Source of the DNA: a virus | Length of the DNA stretch: 64,000 nt | Strand: one strand, 5' to 3' | Virus record (IMG/VR): IMGVR_UViG_3300045257_000207 | Span: 10,059 to 74,058 of that record | Shown here: positions 2,415 through 25,757 of the stretch, piece by piece | How the letters are laid out: each line of letters begins with the position of its first letter | How positions within the stretch are numbered: the stretch's first letter is position 1 | Translations under genes and position numbers: made by a program | Notes under the pieces: model-generated | Told to the model about the DNA's origin: nothing | Databases searched by the model: none | The model's input: the letters and a program-made list of their open reading frames with translations, nothing else

Positions 2415-3137
2415 TTATTCGATGTCTGCGATCTTCGAAACATACAAGGACTTCAGGCGGGATTCCATTTTTTCTTTCATGTCCTTATTGAGATGCTCGA
2501 CTTCTGGAACTTCCTTCATAAACTTCGTGGCAAATTCAGCTTCATTCTTTCCAAACGCTTCATTTCTTAATATTGAATGAGTGATCTTCTGGGTTTCTTG
2601 TTTGCCTACGTTGAATTTATTAAATAACTGCTCTCCTTCTCCACGGGCCTTTCGATAAGAATCGATAGCCGCGTCTACAGATTTGACGATGGTGTTGTAC
2701 ATCTCTTCGAACTTCTGATCGTTGTTGACCACGTGAACCATTTCATCCTTGGTTTTGTGGGCATTTTTCGGTTCTTGGTGAACATAAACTAAATACTTCT
2801 CAAACGCGGAGATAAATGGTTTGGCTGTTTCTACATTCTCAAGGAAATCCACCAAATGTTCCTTGGTCGGCACCTCCGGAGTTTCAATTATGATGTATTT
2901 TTTCTGATTGACTTTGTGGATGCCTAATTTTGTTGAACTGACCGCGCCCTGTCGAATCTTGACCACGAGATTGTTATAGGAACTGGATTTGATAACTGCT
3001 CCAACATTGAAGGTTACGTCCGTAGCAGTGACATCGACGTGACCTTTGTCGAGCATTGAAAGGAGTTTGTGGAATACAAGAGTGGCCTCATTTCCGGCAC
3101 CTTTGAATTCTAACAAGAAGGTTTTGAAGTTTTTCAT
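2415..3137 (-). CDS. Hypothetical late protein, possible internal head protein
   Basis: 240 aa; GATAAATA on - strand at 3162-3169; N-terminus MKNFKTFLLE resembles the T4 capsid-targeting sequence. Confidence 0.75.
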   Translation of the reverse strand: MKNFKTFLLEFKGAGNEATLVFHKLLSMLDKGHVDVTATDVTFNVGAVIKSSSYNNLVVKIRQGAVSSTKLGIHKVNQKKYIIIETPEVPTKEHLVDFLENVETAKPFISAFEKYLVYVHQEPKNAHKTKDEMVHVVNNDQKFEEMYNTIVKSVDAAIDSYRKARGEGEQLFNKFNVGKQETQKITHSILRNEAFGKNEAEFATKFMKEVPEVEHLNKDMKEKMESRLKSLYVSKIADIE

Positions 3138-3248
3138 CGAGGGTTCCTTAACAGATACAGATATTTATCTTCGATTTCTTTTTTCGTTTTAATTCCACGA
3201 ACCACATAAATACTTATATCCAAATTTGAGCAAGTAAGGAGTTCTAAG

Positions 3249-17662: not shown

Positions 17663-19969
17663 ATGTCACGTTCCGATGAATTAATCATCTCTGCATACGG
17701 TTCACACAATGCCACGATTAGCATGTTTTACAAAGGCAAATATACCGTTGTAGAGGTAGAACGTTGGCTTAATAGAAAGAACGCTGGCCTCGCCAATTAC
17801 AACCCAGTCCAGAACATCCAACTCGTATTCGATCAAATTTGTGATTATCTGTTCGGATTGACAGATAGGAGCGAAGCAGATGTTTACATTTCCGGATACA
17901 TGGGACAATACAAGCCGAAGTTCTTTTATAAGAAGCACCTGTCATGTGATCATCACATGGCACACGCAGCGACCGCATTTTACCAGTCGCCATACAAAGA
18001 AGCCTTGATCTATACCTATGACGGCGGCGGAGATAGTTCTTACTTCAATGTGTATCTCGCAGACAAGAACGGTATTAACTTAACCCACAAACACAATCTC
18101 GATCTGGGATTTCCTTATATGATCTTGGCCCATTATCTGGCAGATATCAAGAAAGAAGTTCTCACGGTCGGTAATCTCGTGTATGCCGGTAAACTGATGG
18201 GGCTTTGTTCTTACGGAAAGGTCAATCAAGAATGGCTCCCACATTTTGAAACGTTCTACGAGAAATTTCGCTATACGGGAGATGCGTATGCTGGTGGAGC
18301 AGAAAAGGCACGAGTGGCAGTTCCTGCTCTGTTCAAGTCAATCGGTGTCGAGTTTGACGATGCCAATTCACGTTATGAGGGTCAAGTAGCGTGGGACATT
18401 GCAGCCACAACACAAGCAGCATTTGAAAACGTTTTCCTCAAATATGCAACAAGAACGCTGGAGGAATTTCAGAATCTTCCAGTATGTCTAGCGGGTGGTT
18501 GTGCATTGAACGTTCTCTTGAATACGAAACTCTTAGAGATGCGAAGCGGGAACGTGTTCATTCCTCCGAATACAAACGATTGCGGTATTTCTGTTGGGGC
18601 GCTAATGTGGTATTTGGCTCCATCTAGCCAAGTCGATTTGACATATTCCGGTCTTCCTGTGCTTGATGCTGACAGATTGTCAGAGTACATTGAAGATGGC
18701 GACTTTCAAGTGGTAAGGGATGTCACATTAACGGAACTTGCGATATATCTCAACGAAGGTCATATCGTTGGTATCATTGAAGGAGATTCAGAACACGGAA
18801 GCCGCGCACTTGGTCATCGAAGTATCCTATGTGATCCGGTTGCTGGCATGAAGGACACACTGAACAAAAAAGTCAAGGATCGTGAATGGTATCGTCCGTT
18901 CGCTCCCATGGTTAGATTGGAAGACGCGAATACATACTTCCATTTTGAACGAGGCGAATCGCGTCACATGACTTTCGTCGGAACCGTCAGGGACGAATGG
19001 AAAAGCACTCTGCCAGCTATTACGCATGAAGACGGAACCGGACGACTACAAACAGTCACACGCGCCCAGAACGAGTTCATCTACGACTTGTTGGGAGAGT
19101 TTGAGAAACAGTCTGGACATGCTGTCTTGTTGAACACCTCTTTCAATGTCAACGGTAAACCTATCTTAACGAGATTGTCTGATGCCTTCGAAATGCTCAA
19201 AAAGACGAAATTGGATGCAGTCTATTATCAAAACAATCTGATCTTCAGAGGGCGCGAGGCTAGTAGTTTCATTTCCATACGCGAAGGTTCTCCTGAAACC
19301 GAAACTGGGACTGCGGACGTGCATAAAGTGGACTTCAATGTCTTCGTTTTTGAAACCCCGCAGACGGTAATGGATAAATGCTACCGCGCCATGGCGTTGC
19401 ATTTGAAATCCAAAGGAATCGTCCCACATTTCATGACAGATGCAGTGAACGCTGCAATACTTGAGAAAGCTTTGAAAGATGTTCCACATAGTATAGAAAT
19501 CGTAGGCGAACCTCGTCACTATTACAAAAACTTGACCATGATCCCAGACGCCGCATCTACAAGGGATCATTCACAATTGTTAAGACTTCTGTGGGCCAAG
19601 GAATCAGTTCGCGACCGAGCTATGGTCGGCATGCAGCAAATTTTCGTGAATGGCCCAATGGTTCAGACTGAAAAAATCGATCAACTGCTTGAAGATGTAG
19701 AAAATCATGTGCGAAGTGAACGTGATACCGTATTCATCCAGAAACAACCAGCGAAATCTGCTCGTAAATCCAGAGCGTTTCATCATAAATTGCCAGCCTT
19801 TCGTCTCGTGCCAAGTATCATGTACGGGAGCCGAGATGCGGTAGTCTGGGCGTTCGACTATTACGAAGCCATCATGATGGGGTATTTAAAGGATGGAGTG
19901 CAAATGGTAGAAGAAGACTATCTCACGGCGGCTTTCGTAGATCATCCGACAAGGTTCAAACTGATATGA
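17663..19969 (+). CDS. NodU/CmcH/TobZ-type O-carbamoyltransferase with C-terminal degenerate HtrL-like domain
   Basis: HHMAHAATAFYQSPY, DGGGD, GKLMGL.SYG, AGGCALN, GSRALGHRSIL, REWYRPFAP, LNTSFN; extra ~230 aa resembles the next gene. Confidence 0.92.
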   Translation: MSRSDELIISAYGSHNATISMFYKGKYTVVEVERWLNRKNAGLANYNPVQNIQLVFDQICDYLFGLTDRSEADVYISGYMGQYKPKFFYKKHLSCDHHMAHAATAFYQSPYKEALIYTYDGGGDSSYFNVYLADKNGINLTHKHNLDLGFPYMILAHYLADIKKEVLTVGNLVYAGKLMGLCSYGKVNQEWLPHFETFYEKFRYTGDAYAGGAEKARVAVPALFKSIGVEFDDANSRYEGQVAWDIAATTQAAFENVFLKYATRTLEEFQNLPVCLAGGCALNVLLNTKLLEMRSGNVFIPPNTNDCGISVGALMWYLAPSSQVDLTYSGLPVLDADRLSEYIEDGDFQVVRDVTLTELAIYLNEGHIVGIIEGDSEHGSRALGHRSILCDPVAGMKDTLNKKVKDREWYRPFAPMVRLEDANTYFHFERGESRHMTFVGTVRDEWKSTLPAITHEDGTGRLQTVTRAQNEFIYDLLGEFEKQSGHAVLLNTSFNVNGKPILTRLSDAFEMLKKTKLDAVYYQNNLIFRGREASSFISIREGSPETETGTADVHKVDFNVFVFETPQTVMDKCYRAMALHLKSKGIVPHFMTDAVNAAILEKALKDVPHSIEIVGEPRHYYKNLTMIPDAASTRDHSQLLRLLWAKESVRDRAMVGMQQIFVNGPMVQTEKIDQLLEDVENHVRSERDTVFIQKQPAKSARKSRAFHHKLPAFRLVPSIMYGSRDAVVWAFDYYEAIMMGYLKDGVQMVEEDYLTAAFVDHPTRFKLI

Positions 19970-21627
19970 ACAAAAGCAATCTAACTATCGTGACCGGTCT
20001 CTTTGATATAGGACGTGGCAATATTTCCGATTCTTTCAAGCGATCATTTGATCACTACCTCGAATCATTTAAAAGCTTCTTGGAAGCCACGAAAGACCAT
20101 CAACTTCTAGTGTATATCGAAGCAAAAAACGAACACGTGGTTTGGGAAACGCGCAATCGAACGAACACTGTCGTGGTCGTAAAAGAACTTGACTATCTAC
20201 GTTCCTTTCCATTTTATTCTCAGGTTCAAACCATTCGTCAAAATCCTGAATGGTACGGGCAGGCCGGTTGGCTGCAAGAAAGTCCGCAGGCTACACTGGA
20301 ACTATACAATCCACTTGTCATGATGAAGCAATTCATGCTTAATGATGCTTCACTGATGAACCATTTTGATTCCAAATATTTCCTGTGGATGGATGCTGGA
20401 TTGACCAATACTGTCAACCTGTCGCAATACCTCGATGCAAACTTCGAACGTAGAGTCACTTCCAAAATGAAAAAAATGCTCTATCTATGTTTTCCATATG
20501 ACGGAACCGTAGAAGTTCACGGCTTCAAGAAATCGGAGATGAATCGTTACGCCGGAAAAGAAACAACATATGTCGCCAGAGGTGGTTGTTTTGGAGGATC
20601 AAAAGACAGCATCAATCGCATCAATGAGGTGTACTACAGCTTGTTGAATGCCACCTTATCCAGTGGATTGATGGGCACCGAGGAAAGTCTCTTTACACTG
20701 ATGACATATCGCAACATGGAAATATGTCACACGCACATGATCGAACCGAATGGCTTAGTGTATAAGTTCTTCGAAGATATCAAGGCAATTCCAGTCAAAC
20801 AAAACATGGCAGAAGAAGTCGCAATTTACGCATTGACATTCAACACCCCAGAACAGTTCAGTCTGTTTGCCAAATCATTGAAGGACGCATACCCAAAGGC
20901 GTACAAGACTTACAAGAAATACGTTATCAACAATTCAAATAATGATGCTGTAAACGTTCCATACGCACAACTATTTGAAGATCATGGGTTCACAGAATTC
21001 AAATTTGACAATATCGGAATCAATAATGGTAGACAATTCGCGGCAGAACACTTCGACCAATCTGACCATGAATACATGATCTTTTTTGAGGATGACATGC
21101 TTTTACACCCAGAGGAACCGAGTGTACGCTGCAAAAATGGATATTCCGGGTGGCAACCGGGACTGTTAGAGAAGGCGATCCACATTGTTCAATCCGAAGA
21201 GTTGGACTATTTGAAACTTAGCTTCAGTGAGTTTTTCGGATCAAATGAACAAAACTGGGCGTGGTTCAACATCCCGGACGACGCTCGTCGTGCCGAGTAT
21301 TTTCCAGCGTCCAATAGTGAAGAAGAGGCACTTCGCAAGTTTACGAAGATTTCGTACATTTCAGCATATCGTGGACTACCGTTTGCGGTTGGTCAGTTCC
21401 ATTATTGTAATTGGCCACTTGTGTTCAGTAAGACCGGAAACAAGAAAGTCTTTCTCGATACAAAGTGGGAACATATGTACGAACAGACGCTGATGAGCAA
21501 CACCATGCGATTGATGCATGAGGGCAAGATGAAGGTTGGTTGTCTTCTAGCTTCGCCTATCAACCATTTCCGCAAATATCACTATGCAAAGGGCACGCGC
21601 CGAGAGAATAAACACTACAAAAACTAA
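19966..21627 (+). CDS. HtrL/YibB (WlaTC)-family glycosyltransferase fused to a GT-A domain
   Basis: TIVTGLFDIGR, YNPLVMMK, WMDAG, GGCFGG, MGTEE; second domain GINNGRQ...FFEDDM. Confidence 0.8.
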   Translation: MNKSNLTIVTGLFDIGRGNISDSFKRSFDHYLESFKSFLEATKDHQLLVYIEAKNEHVVWETRNRTNTVVVVKELDYLRSFPFYSQVQTIRQNPEWYGQAGWLQESPQATLELYNPLVMMKQFMLNDASLMNHFDSKYFLWMDAGLTNTVNLSQYLDANFERRVTSKMKKMLYLCFPYDGTVEVHGFKKSEMNRYAGKETTYVARGGCFGGSKDSINRINEVYYSLLNATLSSGLMGTEESLFTLMTYRNMEICHTHMIEPNGLVYKFFEDIKAIPVKQNMAEEVAIYALTFNTPEQFSLFAKSLKDAYPKAYKTYKKYVINNSNNDAVNVPYAQLFEDHGFTEFKFDNIGINNGRQFAAEHFDQSDHEYMIFFEDDMLLHPEEPSVRCKNGYSGWQPGLLEKAIHIVQSEELDYLKLSFSEFFGSNEQNWAWFNIPDDARRAEYFPASNSEEEALRKFTKISYISAYRGLPFAVGQFHYCNWPLVFSKTGNKKVFLDTKWEHMYEQTLMSNTMRLMHEGKMKVGCLLASPINHFRKYHYAKGTRRENKHYKN

Positions 21628-21646
21628 GGGCCTTTCGGCCCTTTTG
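21626..21646. terminator. Terminator between convergent genes
   Basis: AAGGGCC-TTTC-GGCCCTTTT. Confidence 0.8.
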
Positions 21647-21647
21647 T

Positions 21648-22838
21648 TTATGGTGAAATGTACGTGGCTGATGTACTGCCAGTGATAGAGACTGTCAACT
21701 GGTAAGTGATTTCCAATGCTCGATCTTTCGACTTGAGAATAGGATCGAAGATGAAATGCGTCAACAGACGTTCACGCTCTTTAGAAGGGTCGATAGGGTT
21801 GTTAGCGATACCAGCATTCACACCATTGACCGAAGCGTAATTCACGTTGGCACAGATACCGGAAGTCATCACATTGAAGATATTGGATACGTCGTCAGAG
21901 GCACACTGCATAACAACGGCAGACCCCGGCCCAATCGTAAAGCTTTGGAATGTGATAAGCCCGAAACTCTGTTTTCCAGTAATGGATGGATACGTGCCGC
22001 CGCTGCGGTCGGTCACATAAACATACACTAGTGTGTTAAGCGGATCACCACTAAGAATCCATGCTCCAGTGTTAAACCCTTCACAGAAGTCACCATATGT
22101 CAATTGTCCGGATAGTCCAGTGCCGGATGATGGTGTACGAATCGCACAGTTGTAGAATGTGCCATCAACACGAATGGACATACTATAAGTTGTATTCGTG
22201 GCCAAAGTGGAATTGTCGGTGGAAATGACATCACCCAAATTGACTGACGCAAGACCGGCAGTCGAAACCGCCTGTAGACCCGGACTGTATAATCCAATTT
22301 CATCGAACCGGAAGAAGATTTCATCGGTACTTACATCAATGCCCAAATCTTGGGTAGGCATCTGACCGCTTGGCTCATTTTGATTGAGAACGACGACTAC
22401 TGTGATATTTGATTTCTTGCCGACTTCAACAGAAGTGACACCCCCGCCTGACGGGTCATCGGCAGGGTCGGCTCCGCCGCCCGGACGAATTACGTTGTTA
22501 TCCGCTGAACCGGGGTCTGAACCGAACAACGTGCTGGATTCGTCAATGATTTCTGAATAGGTTTCATTATACAGACGAGATTCCCAACCTGCATCAGAAC
22601 CATCGTTTGGAGGATTGAAAACGGTGTTACCTGCCGCATCAGTATACGAACCACCATTACCAAAAGCCATACGGTAAAAGAATGAATTTGGTTCGTTTGC
22701 CAACGCTCTGGCAATGATTCTGCTCATGTTCTGGGGATGAATACGATTTCCCTTATCCACCAAGACTTCATTGGTCGCCATGTCTCGAATGCGGACGCGA
22801 GTGTGAATGTTAATTCCCATTTTTTCATCGTATTGCAT
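21648..22838 (-). CDS. Probable virion structural protein (baseplate or fibre-associated)
   Basis: MAFGNGG, FDEIGLY, LTHFIFDPILKS...ITYQL; TATAAATA on - strand at 22860-22867. Confidence 0.65.
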   Translation of the reverse strand: MQYDEKMGINIHTRVRIRDMATNEVLVDKGNRIHPQNMSRIIARALANEPNSFFYRMAFGNGGSYTDAAGNTVFNPPNDGSDAGWESRLYNETYSEIIDESSTLFGSDPGSADNNVIRPGGGADPADDPSGGGVTSVEVGKKSNITVVVVLNQNEPSGQMPTQDLGIDVSTDEIFFRFDEIGLYSPGLQAVSTAGLASVNLGDVISTDNSTLATNTTYSMSIRVDGTFYNCAIRTPSSGTGLSGQLTYGDFCEGFNTGAWILSGDPLNTLVYVYVTDRSGGTYPSITGKQSFGLITFQSFTIGPGSAVVMQCASDDVSNIFNVMTSGICANVNYASVNGVNAGIANNPIDPSKERERLLTHFIFDPILKSKDRALEITYQLTVSITGSTSATYISP

Positions 22839-22875: not shown

Positions 22876-23589
22876 TCAAACGTTATTACTTGCTACCTTT
22901 TTACATAAACGAATAAAATGTTCGCTTGAGAATTTTTGCTTCATGAAATTGATGTCCAATAGCAACCATTGGATGTTCCCTTTCACATACCCTTTAGAAC
23001 TATCGATACGATCAATGGATGCAGTTCTTTGTTGTCGATGCCCATTTTTGTATGCAAATTGAATAGGTAATCCGCTTAGGGCGCATCGACCATTTTGTTT
23101 TATGTAGATATCCCAAACATACGCTAAATCGATCTCAAATACATGTCCTCTCGATTTAGCACCGGCTTGAATGTTTTTCCAATATTTTCCATCAATATCT
23201 TTATATCCTGTCCAATTTGGACTATTGTTCCCGGTCTCTCCATAACAACCGCATGATTTAGCTTTTCTTAATTTAGAACCATTCACGAGTACAGTGTTGC
23301 CGCAATCACATTCACACTCCCACCATGTGGGACGTTTGGGCATAGAATGTTTAACGAGTAATCTACCATACCTATTACCAGTCTCGTCGTCCGTTCCTTG
23401 ACGATCAAATTTAACACACCCGCATGAGGTGGTTGTGCCTCTTTTTAGATTATTGCTCGTGGTTTGGGTAATAGTTCCACAATCACATTCACACTGCCAT
23501 ATAGCTTTGTAATGTTTATCGGTGCCGAGACATTGGATCGGTGTCAATTTTCCAAATTTTTGGCCTCTTAAATCTTTGATCTTAGCCAT
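22876..23589 (-). mobile_element. Free-standing HNH-type homing endonuclease gene
   Basis: Two GQKFGKL...W.CECDCG...SCGC repeats, CALSG, SIDRIDSSKGY..GNIQW..N..K; own TATAAATA at 23617-23624. Confidence 0.8.
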
Positions 23590-23694: not shown

Positions 23695-24588
23695 ATGAGC
23701 AGCATCATCAAGAAACTCAACAAAATGGAACTCCTCACTACACCGCCAGCGTGTGTAATTGAGCCAGAGTTTGAGGTTATTATGGGCAGTACGGCCTATG
23801 GCGTCACTGGGTCTTCAAGTGATGTTGACGTTTATTCGGTCTGCATTCCTCCTGTCGAAGAGGTGTTCACCCACATGAACGGTATGGTTCCGGGTTTCGG
23901 CCCGAAGCCTAGCGTGTTCAAGACGTGGCAGCAGCATCACATCAAGACCGAGGCTGGAACCGTTCAGGAGAAGGAATACGACCTGTGTTCATATTCCATG
24001 GTTGAATTCTTCAATCTTGCTGCCGAAAACAATCCGAACATCATCGATTCCTTGTTCGTTCCTGACAGGTGCATCACCCATGTTACGGAAGTTGGCAAGG
24101 TCATGCGGGAGAGTCGTCGTCTGTTCCTTCATAAAGGTGCGTATCACAAGTTTAAGGGTTATGCGTACTCGCAACTGTCCAAAATCAAGACCCGCAAACC
24201 GGTGGGAAAACGTGCCGAGTTGGTTGAAAAGTTCGGATACGATGTCAAGTTCGCTTACCATGTTGTTCGTCTTGCTCAAGAATGTGAACAAATCTTGATG
24301 GAAGGCGACCTCGACCTAGAACGTTGCCGTGAAATGCTGAAGGTCATCCGCAAGGGTGAATGGACGCTGGAACAGCTTGAGGAATGGTTCCGTAACAAGG
24401 AACTCATGCTTGACCAGTTGTACATCGACAGCAAGCTACAACACAAGCCAGATTACGCCAAACTAAATCGTTTGTTGATGGTCTGCTTGGAGAGTAAATT
24501 TGGGTCGCTTGACAATCTAATGAAAGGCGGAGTTGACCAGAAAGCCTTGCGCAACTACGAAAAGATTGTTAGAATCATCCAAGGTTGA
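23695..24588 (+). CDS. RlaP/YcgL-like Pol-beta nucleotidyltransferase
   Basis: GSTAYG...SDVD, NNPNII, FKGYAYSQL, YDVKFAYHVVRL. Confidence 0.85.
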   Translation: MSSIIKKLNKMELLTTPPACVIEPEFEVIMGSTAYGVTGSSSDVDVYSVCIPPVEEVFTHMNGMVPGFGPKPSVFKTWQQHHIKTEAGTVQEKEYDLCSYSMVEFFNLAAENNPNIIDSLFVPDRCITHVTEVGKVMRESRRLFLHKGAYHKFKGYAYSQLSKIKTRKPVGKRAELVEKFGYDVKFAYHVVRLAQECEQILMEGDLDLERCREMLKVIRKGEWTLEQLEEWFRNKELMLDQLYIDSKLQHKPDYAKLNRLLMVCLESKFGSLDNLMKGGVDQKALRNYEKIVRIIQG

Positions 24589-24590
24589 GA

Positions 24591-24618
24591 AAAGGGCGAC
24601 CTAAAGTCGCCCTTTTTC
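24591..24618 (+). terminator. Intrinsic terminator
   Basis: AAAGGGCGAC-CTAAA-GTCGCCCTTTTT. Confidence 0.85.
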
Positions 24619-24632
24619 TTTGGAGATTCTGT

Positions 24633-25757
24633 ATGGCATGTAATTGTATGGGGCCGCAAAACGGCGACCCACTTTGTCCTTGCATGATGGGTAATAGATT
24701 CCGATTCCCCCCGGTGGACTTTGATAGCCACCTTTTATGGCGACACCCGGCTCCGGATGCCGCACCGCCATCGAGTATTGGGCCATCTAAAACCTATTTC
24801 GCTTCACCTACCCTACCCTACATTTCACTTCCAACTGTCGAAGAACTTGCGCTGTTGACCAAACATCGCCAAGTCAAGAACAATCCGGATTATATCTTGA
24901 TGGACTTCGATCAGAAGTTGGAACTCGTGTTAAGAACAGGTAGCAACATGATCGACCGTACCGGCGTAGGTGTTCGCTATTTGCCGGGGATTTCCACCAC
25001 CATGGATATATCGTCTCGCATTCCTATTCCAACACGTCGCAAGACGAATTGGAAGAGTATGTTGAAGGAGTATTTGTGGTTCTTGACAGGTTCAGACAAT
25101 ATCAACGATCTAAACAAAATGGGATCGAAAGTTTGGGATTTCTGGAAGGATGACAAATTCACAGAAGCGGGTGGCTTCGATAACGGCTCCATCGGGTATG
25201 GATATGGCCCTAACCTCATCCACTACGGTGGTGACCTCAAGGACTTAGAAAACAACCCCGGCGTCAACCAAATAGAATACGTGCTGAACGAACTACGCAC
25301 CAATCCATTCTCCCGTCGCATCTTGTTCACCTTTTGGCGTCCAGACAAGATAGGCAAGTTGGACTGTAAGCTCCCACCATGCCACCACACCTATCAGTTC
25401 GTCGTAGAACCGGATGAAACAGGTGAGATGACCCTACTATCGTGTGTCATGTACGCTCGCTCCACAGACGCGTTTGTGGGCGCTCTGGCGACCAACCTAC
25501 AAGGTGCAGCCTTCTACACTCATATGATCGCCCAGCAAGTAGGCATGACTCCGAACACTTTAACTTTCTGTTCAGGCCACTTCCACATATATAACAATCA
25601 TATCCCCCTCGTTGAAGAGTACCTAGCGAGACCGATAGTTCCGTCGCCGATTCTTAAACTCAACAAGGCTGCATCAATCTATGACTATGTTCCCGATGAT
25701 TTTACGTTATCTGAATATGAACCATTACCCGCAATGCGCGTTCCTATCGCGGTGTAA
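24633..25757 (+). CDS. thyA: Thymidylate synthase with Cys/Pro-rich N-terminal extension
   Basis: DRTGVG, EYLWF, YG, SRR, LPPCH, RSTD, Asn177-equivalent, HIY.NH, C-terminal PIAV; GGAG RBS before 24633. Confidence 0.9.
   Translation: MACNCMGPQNGDPLCPCMMGNRFRFPPVDFDSHLLWRHPAPDAAPPSSIGPSKTYFASPTLPYISLPTVEELALLTKHRQVKNNPDYILMDFDQKLELVLRTGSNMIDRTGVGVRYLPGISTTMDISSRIPIPTRRKTNWKSMLKEYLWFLTGSDNINDLNKMGSKVWDFWKDDKFTEAGGFDNGSIGYGYGPNLIHYGGDLKDLENNPGVNQIEYVLNELRTNPFSRRILFTFWRPDKIGKLDCKLPPCHHTYQFVVEPDETGEMTLLSCVMYARSTDAFVGALATNLQGAAFYTHMIAQQVGMTPNTLTFCSGHFHIYNNHIPLVEEYLARPIVPSPILKLNKAASIYDYVPDDFTLSEYEPLPAMRVPIAV

What the first reader, a model, noticed from the sequence alone, without database searches (positions are those of the whole stretch)
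17663..21627. Carbamoyltransferase fused to a dead copy of its neighbour's HtrL domain
The last ~230 aa of the carbamoyltransferase align by eye with the HtrL domain of the coupled next gene: YGSRDAVVWAFDYYEAIMMGYLKDGVQMVEEDYLT versus FGGSKDSINRINEVYYSLLNATLSSGLMGTEESLFT. The WMDAG motif appears replaced by FVNGP. Inference: a pseudo-GT used for glycan recognition or heterodimer formation, pointing to glycan O-carbamoylation (NodU-like) rather than the 5hmC-DNA carbamoylation described in other phages.
Basis: partly seen in the sequence, partly recalled or inferred. Interest (0 to 1): 0.72.

Follow-up and report, generated by a model that had tools for sequence, protein, structure and literature searches.

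The report
Phage carbamoyltransferase with degenerate HtrL-like domain
A giant phage encodes an apparently intact sugar-carbamoylating enzyme fused to a worn-down glycosyltransferase-like domain, inside a conserved sugar-adding gene block, so it most likely decorates a glycan on the phage's own proteins and not its DNA, although no sugar has been measured.

Summary
Gene 17663-19969 encodes a 768-aa TobZ/NodU-type O-carbamoyltransferase. Both catalytic domains look intact. A flexible linker then leads to a ~215-aa C-terminal domain (residues ~555-768) that no Pfam or PHROG model recognises.

- **Single-sequence searches:** BLASTP and phmmer find no link to the neighbour's HtrL domain.
- **Profile comparison:** hhalign does find the link, with probability 87-89%, P about 2e-6, ~190 co-linear columns and clean controls.
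- **Structure:** the AlphaFold model is a GT-A fold. Its two best solved matches (4cj8_A, 7ui6_A; Z about 13.7) are the same two as for the neighbour's HtrL domain. The ESM Atlas structure search ranks HtrL_YibB clusters first.
- **Degenerate motifs:** the WxDxG Asp is Asn here and variable in relatives. HtrL's His185 and second Glu are also not conserved. The domain is 17.5% identical to relatives, against 60-65% for the catalytic domains.
- **Age:** it is not a recent copy of the neighbour. Every complete carbamoyltransferase gene recovered in ~20 XacN1-like jumbo-phage loci has the fusion.
- **Context:** a GT60 gene and an HtrL+GT2-like gene flank it, the thymidylate synthase is the Asn177 type, and XacN1 virions carry glycoproteins. 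This favours glycan carbamoylation over 5hmC-DNA carbamoylation.

This scan reported the same fusion before on other DNA (e1-5651925, e1-5683354, e1-5822452).

The parts
16226..17599 (+). GT60-type glycosyltransferase (PF11397 'GlcNAc'). It is the first gene of the conserved module and the homologue of XacN1 ORF334.
   Evidence: Pfam E 1.4e-76; phrog_24687 E 1.5e-172; sits directly upstream of the carbamoyltransferase in every locus that extends far enough.
17604..17622 (.). GC-rich hairpin followed by a T-run. It looks like a terminator and lies between the GT60 gene and the carbamoyltransferase gene.
   Evidence: This is a consensus match only.
17663..19243 (+). O-carbamoyltransferase catalytic part of P0001 (residues 1-527): a Kae1-like domain and a YrdC-like domain whose family motifs are present.
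   Evidence: Carbam_trans_N E 4.9e-32 and Carbam_trans_C E 1.4e-56; phrog_1601 E 4e-125 over residues 8-527; aligns to solved carbamoyltransferase 7xb6, TobZ, GdmN and NovN. HHMAH, the NDCGIS segment, EHGSRALGHRSI, REWYRPFAP and NTSFNV are all matched.
19244..19324 (+). Linker, residues ~528-554, predicted to be disordered.
   Evidence: pLDDT below 50 for model residues 1-19; variable in sequence and length among relatives.
19325..19966 (+). C-terminal degenerate HtrL/WlaTC-like GT-A domain (residues ~555-768). FVNGP at 19643-19657 replaces WxDxG. G722 and E750/E751 lie at 19826-19915.
   Evidence: AF2 pLDDT 78.9, pTM 0.77; Foldseek PDB GT6 hits at E 1.4e-7; VIA Z 13.8 and 13.7 to 4cj8_A and 7ui6_A; Atlas TM 0.67-0.71 to PF09612 clusters; hhalign P 2e-6; motif map.
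19966..20775 (+). HtrL_YibB domain of P0002 (residues 1-270). All family-invariant residues are present: W141, D143, G145, G210, G211, E239, E240.
   Evidence: PF09612 E 2.1e-17, 64.1 bits against a cut-off of 24.1; TIGR02192 E 4e-21; AF2 pLDDT 93.8; GT-A matches at Z 13.7; invariant columns.
20803..21624 (+). Second domain of P0002 (residues ~280-553). It is a GT2-like GT-A domain of a viral family often fused to HtrL domains and contains an FFEDDM motif.
   Evidence: Atlas structure hits at TM 0.81-0.84 to viral HtrL-fusion clusters and TM 0.59-0.64 to Glycos_transf_2 clusters; no Pfam hit.
21626..21643 (.). Bidirectional terminator-like hairpin between the two convergent genes.
21648..22838 (-). 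Conserved 396-aa protein of unknown function (phrog_11259). It lies convergent to the module in the relatives whose locus extends far enough.
   Evidence: homologues in 15+ loci; no Pfam hit.
24585..25757 (+). Thymidylate synthase homologue of the Asn177 (uracil-specific) type. It is not a dCMP hydroxymethylase.
   Evidence: PF00303 E 5.9e-67; TIGR03284 167.6 bits against a cut-off of 108.35; sequence ...RSTDAFVGALATNLQG...; one TS each in XacN1 and RAS14, both with Asn at this position.

Best explanation
P0001 is a two-part enzyme. The first part is an active TobZ/NodU-family O-carbamoyltransferase. By analogy with TobZ, its YrdC-like domain would make carbamoyl-AMP from carbamoyl phosphate and ATP, and its Kae1-like domain would transfer the carbamoyl group to a sugar hydroxyl. 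A ~25-residue flexible linker joins it to an ancient, fast-evolving HtrL/WlaTC-type GT-A domain. That domain has lost the HtrL family's invariant polar residues but keeps a conserved motif set of its own. I infer that the degenerate domain no longer transfers sugar. It more likely works as a binding or docking module, either for the nascent glycan or its carrier, or for the partner glycosyltransferases. This would place the carbamoyltransferase on the product of the co-transcribed glycosyltransferases (GT60, and HtrL+GT2-like P0002, which is translationally coupled by ATGA). The likely final target is an O-glycan on the phage's own structural proteins, not DNA. What is shown: the domain architecture, the fold, the remote homology, the motif loss, conservation of the fusion and the module, and the absence of an Asp177-type TS. 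What is inferred: loss of catalysis, the docking role, and the acceptor.
For: - Catalytic part: both Pfam domains score far above their cut-offs, and the motifs align to solved carbamoyltransferases.
- C-terminal domain: it is a GT-A fold whose two nearest PDB chains are the same as for the neighbour's HtrL domain. Five of the six best Atlas structure rows are PF09612 clusters. hhalign gives P 2e-6 over ~190 columns with clean controls, and only short weak hits to the other GT families of the same loci.
- Degeneracy: the HtrL D143 position is D8/T5/N4/S2/I1 (Asn in the window), the H185 and E240 positions are variable, and the N-terminal VT/Arg segment does not align. The domain is 17.5% identical to relatives, against 60-65% for the catalytic domains of the same polypeptide and 54-55% for P0002.
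- Still constrained: Y621, L643, W644, K646, G722 and E735 are invariant; W729 is in 19 of 20 and F661 in 18 of 20 (Tyr otherwise). The 750 position is always acidic.
- Fusion and module are conserved in ~20 loci, including XacN1, Xoo-sp13, RAS14 and CM1.
- ATGA coupling and flanking hairpins.
- Target: the GT60 neighbour, XacN1 virion glycoproteins (PMC5852040), and Pro/Thr-rich tracts in XacN1 ORF325, three genes downstream of the module.
- Not DNA: the TS is Asn177 type and single-copy in complete relatives. In the 5hmC-carbamoyltransferase study, the pairing of carbamoyltransferase with TS-family genes was seen only in cytosine-modified contigs, whose TS homologues mostly have Asp177 (PMC8670742).
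Against: - No biochemical data exist for any member.
- 'Dead' rests only on comparison with uncharacterised HtrL family invariants.
- Eight of 20 relatives keep an Asp at the D143 position, and all keep an acidic residue at the E239 position. As far as I recall, the GT6 enzyme BoGT6a works with NXN in place of DXD, so a divergent active glycosyltransferase is not excluded.
- The window's copy departs from the family consensus at five of its conserved positions (589, 622, 659, 715, 730), so it may be decaying and not functional.
- The contig is only 21% complete, so genes elsewhere, such as a hydroxymethylase, cannot be excluded for this phage itself.
Confidence: 0.55

Rival explanations
1. The C-terminal domain is an active glycosyltransferase with a divergent, possibly metal-independent site. 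P0001 would then be bifunctional: it adds a sugar and then carbamoylates it.
For: It has a GT-A fold with Z 13-14 to retaining GT6 and GT8 enzymes. The position aligned with HtrL E239 is always acidic, G211 is invariant, and an aromatic residue sits at the W141 position. Eight of 20 relatives keep an Asp at the D143 position. The domain has its own strictly conserved residues. From memory, BoGT6a is active with NXN in place of DXD.
Against: The D143 position holds Thr, Ser, Asn or Ile in 12 of 20 sequences. The H185 and E240 positions are variable, and HtrL's N-terminal conserved VT/Arg segment has no counterpart. Divergence is three- to four-fold greater than in the neighbouring catalytic domains. 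No Pfam GT model matches any of 17 members, even at E up to 10.
Confidence: 0.2
2. The module modifies DNA. The carbamoyltransferase would act on a hydroxymethyl-pyrimidine or on a sugar attached to one, as in the published 5hmC carbamoyltransferase.
For: Phage carbamoyltransferases of this family can carbamoylate 5hmC in DNA (PMC8670742). A TS-family gene lies 4.6 kb downstream in the window. The module sits among replication genes: DNA polymerase, RNase H / 5'-3' exonuclease.
Against: The TS is Asn177 type and scores above NCBI's thymidylate synthase cut-off. The complete XacN1 and RAS14 genomes hold one TS-family gene each, both Asn type. In XacN1 that gene lies about 65 kb from the carbamoyltransferase. 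The partner enzymes are GT60-, HtrL- and GT2-like GT-A proteins, none of which belongs to a family I know to glycosylate DNA. The fused GT-like domain also points to sugars.
Confidence: 0.08
3. The module remodels a host envelope glycan (LPS or exopolysaccharide) during infection and does not act on the virion. The HtrL-like domain would dock onto a host glycan intermediate.
For: HtrL/YibB and WlaTC are named after genes in bacterial LPS/LOS loci (NCBI name 'WlaTC/HtrL family glycosyltransferase'). From memory, NodU-type enzymes act on lipo-oligosaccharides.
Against: None of these proteins was annotated with a membrane or lipid-carrier domain, although transmembrane segments were not scanned. 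GT60 enzymes are cytoplasmic protein-modifying enzymes (family knowledge). XacN1 virions contain glycoproteins. These are lytic jumbo phages, for which host surface conversion has no obvious benefit.
Confidence: 0.1
4. The C-terminal domain is a decaying remnant with no function. The similarity to HtrL would be either chance or a fossil.
For: It diverges very fast (13-20% identity to relatives). The window's copy departs from five family-conserved positions. No single-sequence search finds a relative.
Against: It is kept in frame at a constant length (765-777 aa in total) in all 21 complete carbamoyltransferase ORFs recovered from distinct loci. It has invariant residues and a confident, compact AF2 fold. 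Chance similarity is excluded by the controls and by structure.
Confidence: 0.07

Closest known systems
TobZ / NodU / CmcH / NovN / GdmN O-carbamoyltransferases (Pfam PF02543 + PF16861; PDB 3VEN, 7XB6, 7VYJ, 9S2T)
   Same: Residues 1-527 have the same Kae1-like plus YrdC-like two-domain architecture, and the conserved motifs align. The presumed chemistry is the same: carbamoyl phosphate plus ATP gives carbamoyl-AMP, which O-carbamoylates a hydroxyl.
   Different: None of the solved matches aligns beyond residue ~532. The 215-aa GT-A domain is an extra, found so far only in the XacN1-like jumbo-phage clade. P0001 is not a NodU orthologue (173.7 bits against a cut-off of 1000).
HtrL_YibB / WlaTC family (Pfam PF09612), as in the neighbouring gene P0002 and many viral multi-domain glycosyltransferases
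   Same: Same GT-A sub-fold, the same order of secondary-structure elements and the same nearest solved structures. Profile-profile homology runs over ~190 columns. Shared features are an aromatic residue at W141, the Gly at G211, an acidic residue at E239 and a basic residue at K121.
   Different: No Pfam hit at any threshold. The family-invariant D143, H185 and E240 are not conserved, and the N-terminal conserved segment is missing. It occurs only as a C-terminal appendage of a carbamoyltransferase.
Phage 5-hydroxymethylcytosine carbamoyltransferase (eLife 2021, PMC8670742)
   Same: Same enzyme family, and phage-encoded.
   Different: That enzyme is a 63-kDa protein, too small to carry an extra ~215-aa domain, and is encoded with a TS-family gene (TS homologues of modified contigs mostly have Asp177). 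Here the protein carries a GT-like domain, sits among glycosyltransferases, and the only TS is Asn177 type.
Non-catalytic glycosyltransferase-fold partners such as GtfB of the GtfA-GtfB O-GlcNAc transferase (from memory, not tested here)
   Same: The concept is the same: a glycosyltransferase fold that has lost catalysis and serves to bind the acceptor or stabilise a partner enzyme.
   Different: GtfB has a GT-B fold and is a separate subunit that pairs with a glycosyltransferase. Here a GT-A fold is covalently fused to a carbamoyltransferase, and no interaction has been shown.

Membership tests
NodU/CmcH/TobZ O-carbamoyltransferase family (PF02543 + PF16861) | Both Pfam domains score above their gathering cut-offs, in N-to-C order. 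| tested here: met
   112.1 bits (cut-off 24) and 191.1 bits (cut-off 27); phrog_1601 E 4e-125.
NodU/CmcH/TobZ O-carbamoyltransferase family (PF02543 + PF16861) | Conserved Kae1-like His motif and the YrdC-like carbamoyl-phosphate/ATP motifs. | tested here: met
   HHMAH aligns with HHRAH of 7xb6. The NDCGIS segment, EHGSRALGHRSI, REWYRPFAP and NTSFNV all align with matching residues of the solved enzyme. Assigning these motifs to metal and nucleotide binding rests on knowledge of the TobZ structure.
NodU/CmcH/TobZ O-carbamoyltransferase family (PF02543 + PF16861) | ATP- and carbamoyl-phosphate-dependent O-carbamoylation activity. | not testable with these tools
   Needs an enzyme assay.
NodU proper (NCBIfam NF041651 equivalog) | Score above the equivalog cut-off. 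| tested here: not met
   173.7 bits against a cut-off of 1000.
HtrL_YibB / WlaTC (PF09612): C-terminal domain of P0001 | Match to the Pfam/NCBIfam family model. | tested here: not met
   No PF09612 hit for P0001 at E up to 1, nor for any of 17 family members at E up to 10. No TIGR02192 hit.
HtrL_YibB / WlaTC (PF09612): C-terminal domain of P0001 | Homology detectable by profile-profile comparison over the whole domain. | tested here: met
   hhalign probability 87-89%, P 2e-6 to 3.8e-6, 191-194 columns. Reversed controls scored 12.6-12.8 and shuffled controls at most 26, against 48.6 for the real pair.
HtrL_YibB / WlaTC (PF09612): C-terminal domain of P0001 | Same fold as a bona fide HtrL domain. 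| tested here: met
   Both AF2 models have 4cj8_A and 7ui6_A as their top two PDB chains (Z 13.8/13.7 and 13.7/13.1). Atlas structure search: five of the top six rows are PF09612 clusters, TM 0.67-0.71.
HtrL_YibB / WlaTC (PF09612): C-terminal domain of P0001 | Family-invariant residues: WxDxG Asp, His185, Glu239-Glu240, Gly210-Gly211, and the N-terminal VT and Arg. | tested here: not met
   D143 maps to D8/T5/N4/S2/I1 (window Asn663). H185 maps to a variable position. E240 maps to a variable position, where only the window has Glu. G210 maps to W9/G7 and others. The N-terminal segment is unaligned. Kept: G211 (20/20), an acidic residue at E239 (20/20), and an aromatic residue at W141 (20/20).
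HtrL_YibB / WlaTC (PF09612): N-terminal domain of P0002 | Match above the gathering cut-off, with invariant residues present. | tested here: met
   64.1 bits against 24.1. W141, D143, G210, E239 and E240 are invariant in the 27-sequence alignment that includes the window.
Phage 5hmC carbamoyltransferase system (PMC8670742) | Co-occurrence with an Asp177-type TS homologue (dCMP hydroxymethylase). | tested here: not met
   The window TS has Asn at the 177-equivalent position. XacN1 and RAS14 each have one TS-family gene, both Asn. The window's own genome is only 21% complete.
Phage 5hmC carbamoyltransferase system (PMC8670742) | Carbamoylation of 5hmC in DNA or RNA. | not testable with these tools
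   Needs an assay on 5hmC DNA.
Phage 5hmC carbamoyltransferase system (PMC8670742) | Differentially conserved residues at TobZ positions W408, G421 and R423. | not tested
   The main text names the positions but not the residue states that go with modification.

The most novel reading that the evidence does not exclude
A clade of jumbo phages builds a carbamoylated O-glycan on its own mucin-like virion proteins. The degenerate HtrL-type domain would be a purpose-kept 'reader' that recognises the nascent glycan, or the glycosyltransferase complex, and steers the carbamoyltransferase to it. I know of no described pseudo-glycosyltransferase that targets a non-glycosyltransferase tailoring enzyme, and no described carbamoylated viral glycoprotein.
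Probability: 0.3. Interest if true: 0.65.

Novelty: new variant of a known kind. Interest (0 to 1): 0.45.

Why it matters
Phage carbamoyltransferases are common, for example the 'Nol-like' enzymes of cyanophages. The only phage activity shown in the papers I found is on 5hmC DNA. This clade links the same chemistry physically to glycan-building enzymes, through a fused glycosyltransferase-derived domain and a conserved GT60/HtrL/GT2 block. XacN1, a cultured relative, has virion glycoproteins. That makes a concrete question testable: do jumbo phages put carbamoylated sugars on their particles, and is a dead glycosyltransferase fold used as the targeting device? The result also gives a domain annotation to a ~215-aa region that Pfam and PHROGs leave blank in XacN1, Xoo-sp13, RAS14, CM1 and about 20 metagenomic relatives.

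Tried and rejected
- **BLASTP of P0001 against P0002:** no alignment of the relevant regions.
- **Family scans of the extension:** nothing in Pfam, PHROGs or NCBIfam. A weak YjcZ hit (E 0.004, residues 598-643) occurs in only 1 of 17 family members, so I treat it as chance.
- **phmmer of the extension against 1.8 billion representatives:** one hit, P0003. It is a tandem-repeat protein that matches a 28-residue stretch many times over, so the score is an artefact.
- **Word-based homologue searches:** the single sequence found only itself. The 17-sequence profile found only fragments of fused carbamoyltransferases. No stand-alone relative turned up.
- **Locus searches:** the single-sequence scan of viral contigs found nothing.
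- **Profile search of PDB sequences with A5:** only a chance hit at E 0.4.
- **Megablast of the locus against phage genomes:** no match.
- **First small hhalign (8 against 8 sequences):** only a 57-column local hit at 5% probability. It became convincing only with deeper profiles.
- **BFVD fold search:** many viral GT-A proteins, mostly unnamed, so no resolution at family level.
- **'Recent duplicate of the neighbour':** rejected. hhalign gives P 0.013 to the neighbour-type HtrL domain against P 2.8e-4 to the ORF332-type, and the fusion is clade-wide.

Full report
**What is at the coordinates**

The window is part of a 74-kb viral contig that CheckV rates 21% complete.
- P0001: 17663-19969, + strand, 768 aa.
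- P0002: 19966-21627, + strand, 553 aa.

The two genes overlap by ATGA at 19966-19969. Terminator-like hairpins at 17604-17622 and 21626-21643 bracket the pair. All quoted peptides are present at the stated places.

P0001 residues 80-313 and 362-527 match Carbam_trans_N (E 4.9e-32) and Carbam_trans_C (E 1.4e-56). P0002 residues 5-255 match HtrL_YibB (E 2.1e-17, above the cut-off). Residues ~535-768 of P0001 match nothing in Pfam, PHROGs or NCBIfam.

**Is the C-terminal extension related to HtrL?**

Single-sequence methods say nothing.
- BLASTP of the two proteins does not align the relevant regions.
- phmmer against 1.8 billion representatives returned only a tandem-repeat artefact.

I therefore collected relatives.
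- Full-length fused homologues occur in Xanthomonas phages XacN1 and Xoo-sp13 and in Stenotrophomonas phages RAS14 and CM1. Cyanophage carbamoyltransferases match only residues ~3-530.
- Scans of viral and metagenome contigs gave about 20 more loci. Every complete carbamoyltransferase ORF in them is 765-777 aa.

Profile-profile results:

| Comparison | Probability | P | Aligned columns |
|---|---|---|---|
| 17 extensions vs 27 HtrL domains | 64% | 6.6e-5 | 199 |
| 20 extensions vs 54 HtrL-type domains | 87-89% | 2e-6 to 3.8e-6 | 191-194 |

Controls for the last comparison (real score 48.6): reversed profiles scored 12.6 and 12.8, and 40 block-shuffled profiles scored at most 26.0.

The same extension profile gave only short hits (13-46 columns, P above 0.03) to the other protein families of these loci. 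Those were GT60, the C-terminal half of P0002, the ORF331 type, and the 396-aa protein. The signal is therefore specific to HtrL-type domains and not a general GT-A resemblance.

**Structure**

| Model | Alignment depth | Mean pLDDT | pTM |
|---|---|---|---|
| Extension (P0001 535-768) | 17 sequences | 78.9 | 0.77 |
| P0002 HtrL domain (1-270) | 27 sequences | 93.8 | 0.92 |

- In the extension model, the first 19 residues are disordered and form the linker. The rest is an alpha/beta domain.
- Foldseek against the PDB gives GT6 blood-group transferases at E about 1e-7.
- VIA-align against 48,161 chains puts BoGT6a 4cj8_A first (Z 13.8, rmsd 3.3, 190 aligned) and the LARGE1 xylosyltransferase domain 7ui6_A second (Z 13.7).
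- The HtrL-domain model has the same two chains on top (Z 13.7 and 13.1). It also shares GTB, UGGT, LgtC, XXYLT1, WbbM and MGS further down the list.
- The secondary-structure elements come in the same order in both models. The bona fide HtrL domain has extra helices between strand 3 and the long helix.
- Independently, the ESM Atlas structure search with residues 535-768 ranks HtrL_YibB-containing viral clusters in five of its top six rows (TM 0.67-0.71). GT6 (0.62) and GT8 (0.65) clusters come lower.

I conclude that the extension is a remote HtrL/WlaTC-type GT-A domain.

**Is it 'dead'?**

Mapping through the hhalign alignment:

| HtrL position (54 sequences) | Conservation in HtrL | Equivalent in the 20 extensions | Window residue |
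|---|---|---|---|
| W141 | 54/54 | F18, Y2 | F661 |
| D143 (of WxDxG) | 54/54 | D8, T5, N4, S2, I1 | N663 |
| G145 | 52/54 | variable | P665 |
| H185 | 53/54 | variable | I692 |
| G210 | 54/54 | W9, G7 and others | Y721 |
| G211 | 53/54 | G20 | G722 |
| E239 | 52/54 | D15, E5 | E750 |
| E240 | 52/54 | variable (only the window has Glu) | E751 |

HtrL's N-terminal conserved Val-Thr and Arg residues have no aligned counterpart.

The extension has its own conserved set: Y621, L643, W644, K646, H659, F661, V662, P715, G722, W729, E735, Y753. The window's copy departs from five family-conserved positions. Three belong to that set: Gln for His at 659, Leu for Pro at 715, and Lys for His at 622. The other two are positions 589 and 730.

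Divergence is much higher than in the neighbouring domains:

| Region | Identity of the window to its relatives |
|---|---|
| Extension | 17.5% (range 13-20%) |
| Kae1-like domain | 60% |
| YrdC-like domain | 65% |
| Two domains of P0002 | 54-55% |

This pattern fits a domain that has lost the ancestral catalytic constraint but is kept for something else. It does not prove loss of activity, because no HtrL enzyme has been characterised.

**Is it a copy of the neighbour?**

Not in any recent sense.
- The fusion predates the split of all the sampled relatives.
- The extension scores slightly better against the small ORF332-type HtrL-like proteins (P 2.8e-4) than against the neighbour-type domain (P 0.013).
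- Most relatives carry an ORF332-type gene between the carbamoyltransferase and the P0002 homologue. The window, L006/L027 and L024 lack it.
- The donor lineage cannot be resolved at about 10% identity.

**The carbamoyltransferase part**

It aligns to solved carbamoyltransferase 7xb6, TobZ, GdmN and NovN. The His motif (HHMAH), the NDCGIS segment, and the YrdC-like motifs EHGSRALGHRSI, REWYRPFAP and NTSFNV are all matched. I take it to be active. It is not a NodU orthologue (173.7 bits against a cut-off of 1000).

**Surroundings and likely target**

The conserved block runs in this order:
1. GT60-type glycosyltransferase (PF11397, 16226-17599).
2. Carbamoyltransferase with the extension.
3. 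Optional ORF332-type and ORF331-type genes (absent in the window).
4. HtrL + second domain (P0002).
5. A convergent 396-aa protein of unknown function (phrog_11259).

The second domain of P0002 belongs to a GT2-like viral family that is often fused to HtrL domains.

The evidence against DNA as the target:
- The nearby TS homologue (24585-25757) has Asn at the E. coli-177 position and passes NCBI's thymidylate synthase cut-off.
- The complete genomes of XacN1 and RAS14 have a single TS-family gene each, both Asn type. In XacN1 it lies about 65 kb from the carbamoyltransferase.
- In the study that discovered 5hmC carbamoyltransferase, the pairing with TS-family genes was seen only in cytosine-modified contigs, whose TS homologues mostly have Asp177. 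In unmodified contigs the carbamoyltransferases sat next to glycosyltransferases (PMC8670742).

The evidence for a virion glycan as the target:
- The XacN1 paper reports at least two virion glycoproteins and proposes that the phage's own glycosyltransferases make them. One of those is ORF334, the GT60 gene next to the carbamoyltransferase (PMC5852040).
- XacN1 ORF325, a 3313-aa protein next to the baseplate wedge gene and three genes downstream of the module, carries Pro/Thr-rich tracts near residue 3080-3150.

These points favour carbamoylation of a glycan on phage structural proteins. None of it has been measured.

**Mechanism proposed**

1. GT60 and the HtrL/GT2-like enzymes build a short O-glycan on a phage protein (inferred).
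2. The carbamoyltransferase makes carbamoyl-AMP and caps a sugar hydroxyl (by analogy with TobZ).
3. The tethered, degenerate HtrL-type domain binds the glycan, its carrier or the partner glycosyltransferases, and so supplies targeting (inferred).

The main rival is that the extension is still an active, divergent glycosyltransferase. That would make the protein bifunctional.

**Comparison, novelty and score**

The catalytic core is an ordinary family member. The fused degenerate HtrL-type domain is annotated in none of the libraries searched, and I did not find it described in the papers searched. It is best called a new variant of a known kind.

Earlier notes of this scan describe the same fusion on other genomes and reached the same reading. 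My analysis was done before I read them. I score interest at 0.45: a well-supported, unannotated architecture with a testable hypothesis, but no direct evidence of function.

Noticed in passing
L002:11304-12161 (XacN1 ORF332) and homologues in L003, L004, L008, L011-L026: Most relatives carry an extra small (283-335 aa) HtrL-like gene between the carbamoyltransferase and the P0002 homologue. Pfam does not recognise it, even at E up to 1. hhalign to the P0002-type HtrL domain gives 98.5% probability (P 2e-15). The window, L006/L027 and L024 lack it.
   Followed up: partly
window 24585-24900: As called from a TTG start, the thymidylate synthase ORF has an N-terminal extension of about 100 aa with a Cys-rich stretch (CMACNCMG...CPCMMG). 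It may be a mis-called start or an added small domain.
   Followed up: no
window 22876-23589 (- strand): An HNH / endonuclease VII-like homing endonuclease gene (phrog_374 E 3.6e-34) sits just beyond the conserved 396-aa gene. At the same position the XacN1, Xoo-sp13 and RAS14 records annotate other genes, none named an endonuclease, so it is probably a mobile insertion.
   Followed up: no
L032 (XacN1 ORF325, residues ~3080-3150 of 3313): This giant protein lies next to the baseplate wedge gene and three genes downstream of the glycan module. It contains Pro/Thr/Ser-rich tracts (PSPSPTPTPTTTP..., PEPTPTPTPTPTP...), which are candidate O-glycosylation sites.
   Followed up: partly
window 21648-22838 (- strand): A 396-aa protein (phrog_11259) with no Pfam match lies convergent to the module in the relatives whose locus extends far enough. 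Its function is unknown, and it may be part of the pathway.
   Followed up: partly
window 17604-17622 and 21626-21643: GC-rich hairpins with T-runs bracket the carbamoyltransferase/P0002 pair. This suggests a two-gene transcription unit separate from the upstream GT60 gene.
   Followed up: partly
window 23695-24588: An RlaP-type nucleotidyltransferase gene (PF10127 E 4.4e-18; phrog_388) overlaps the start of the TS gene as called. Its role was not examined.
   Followed up: no
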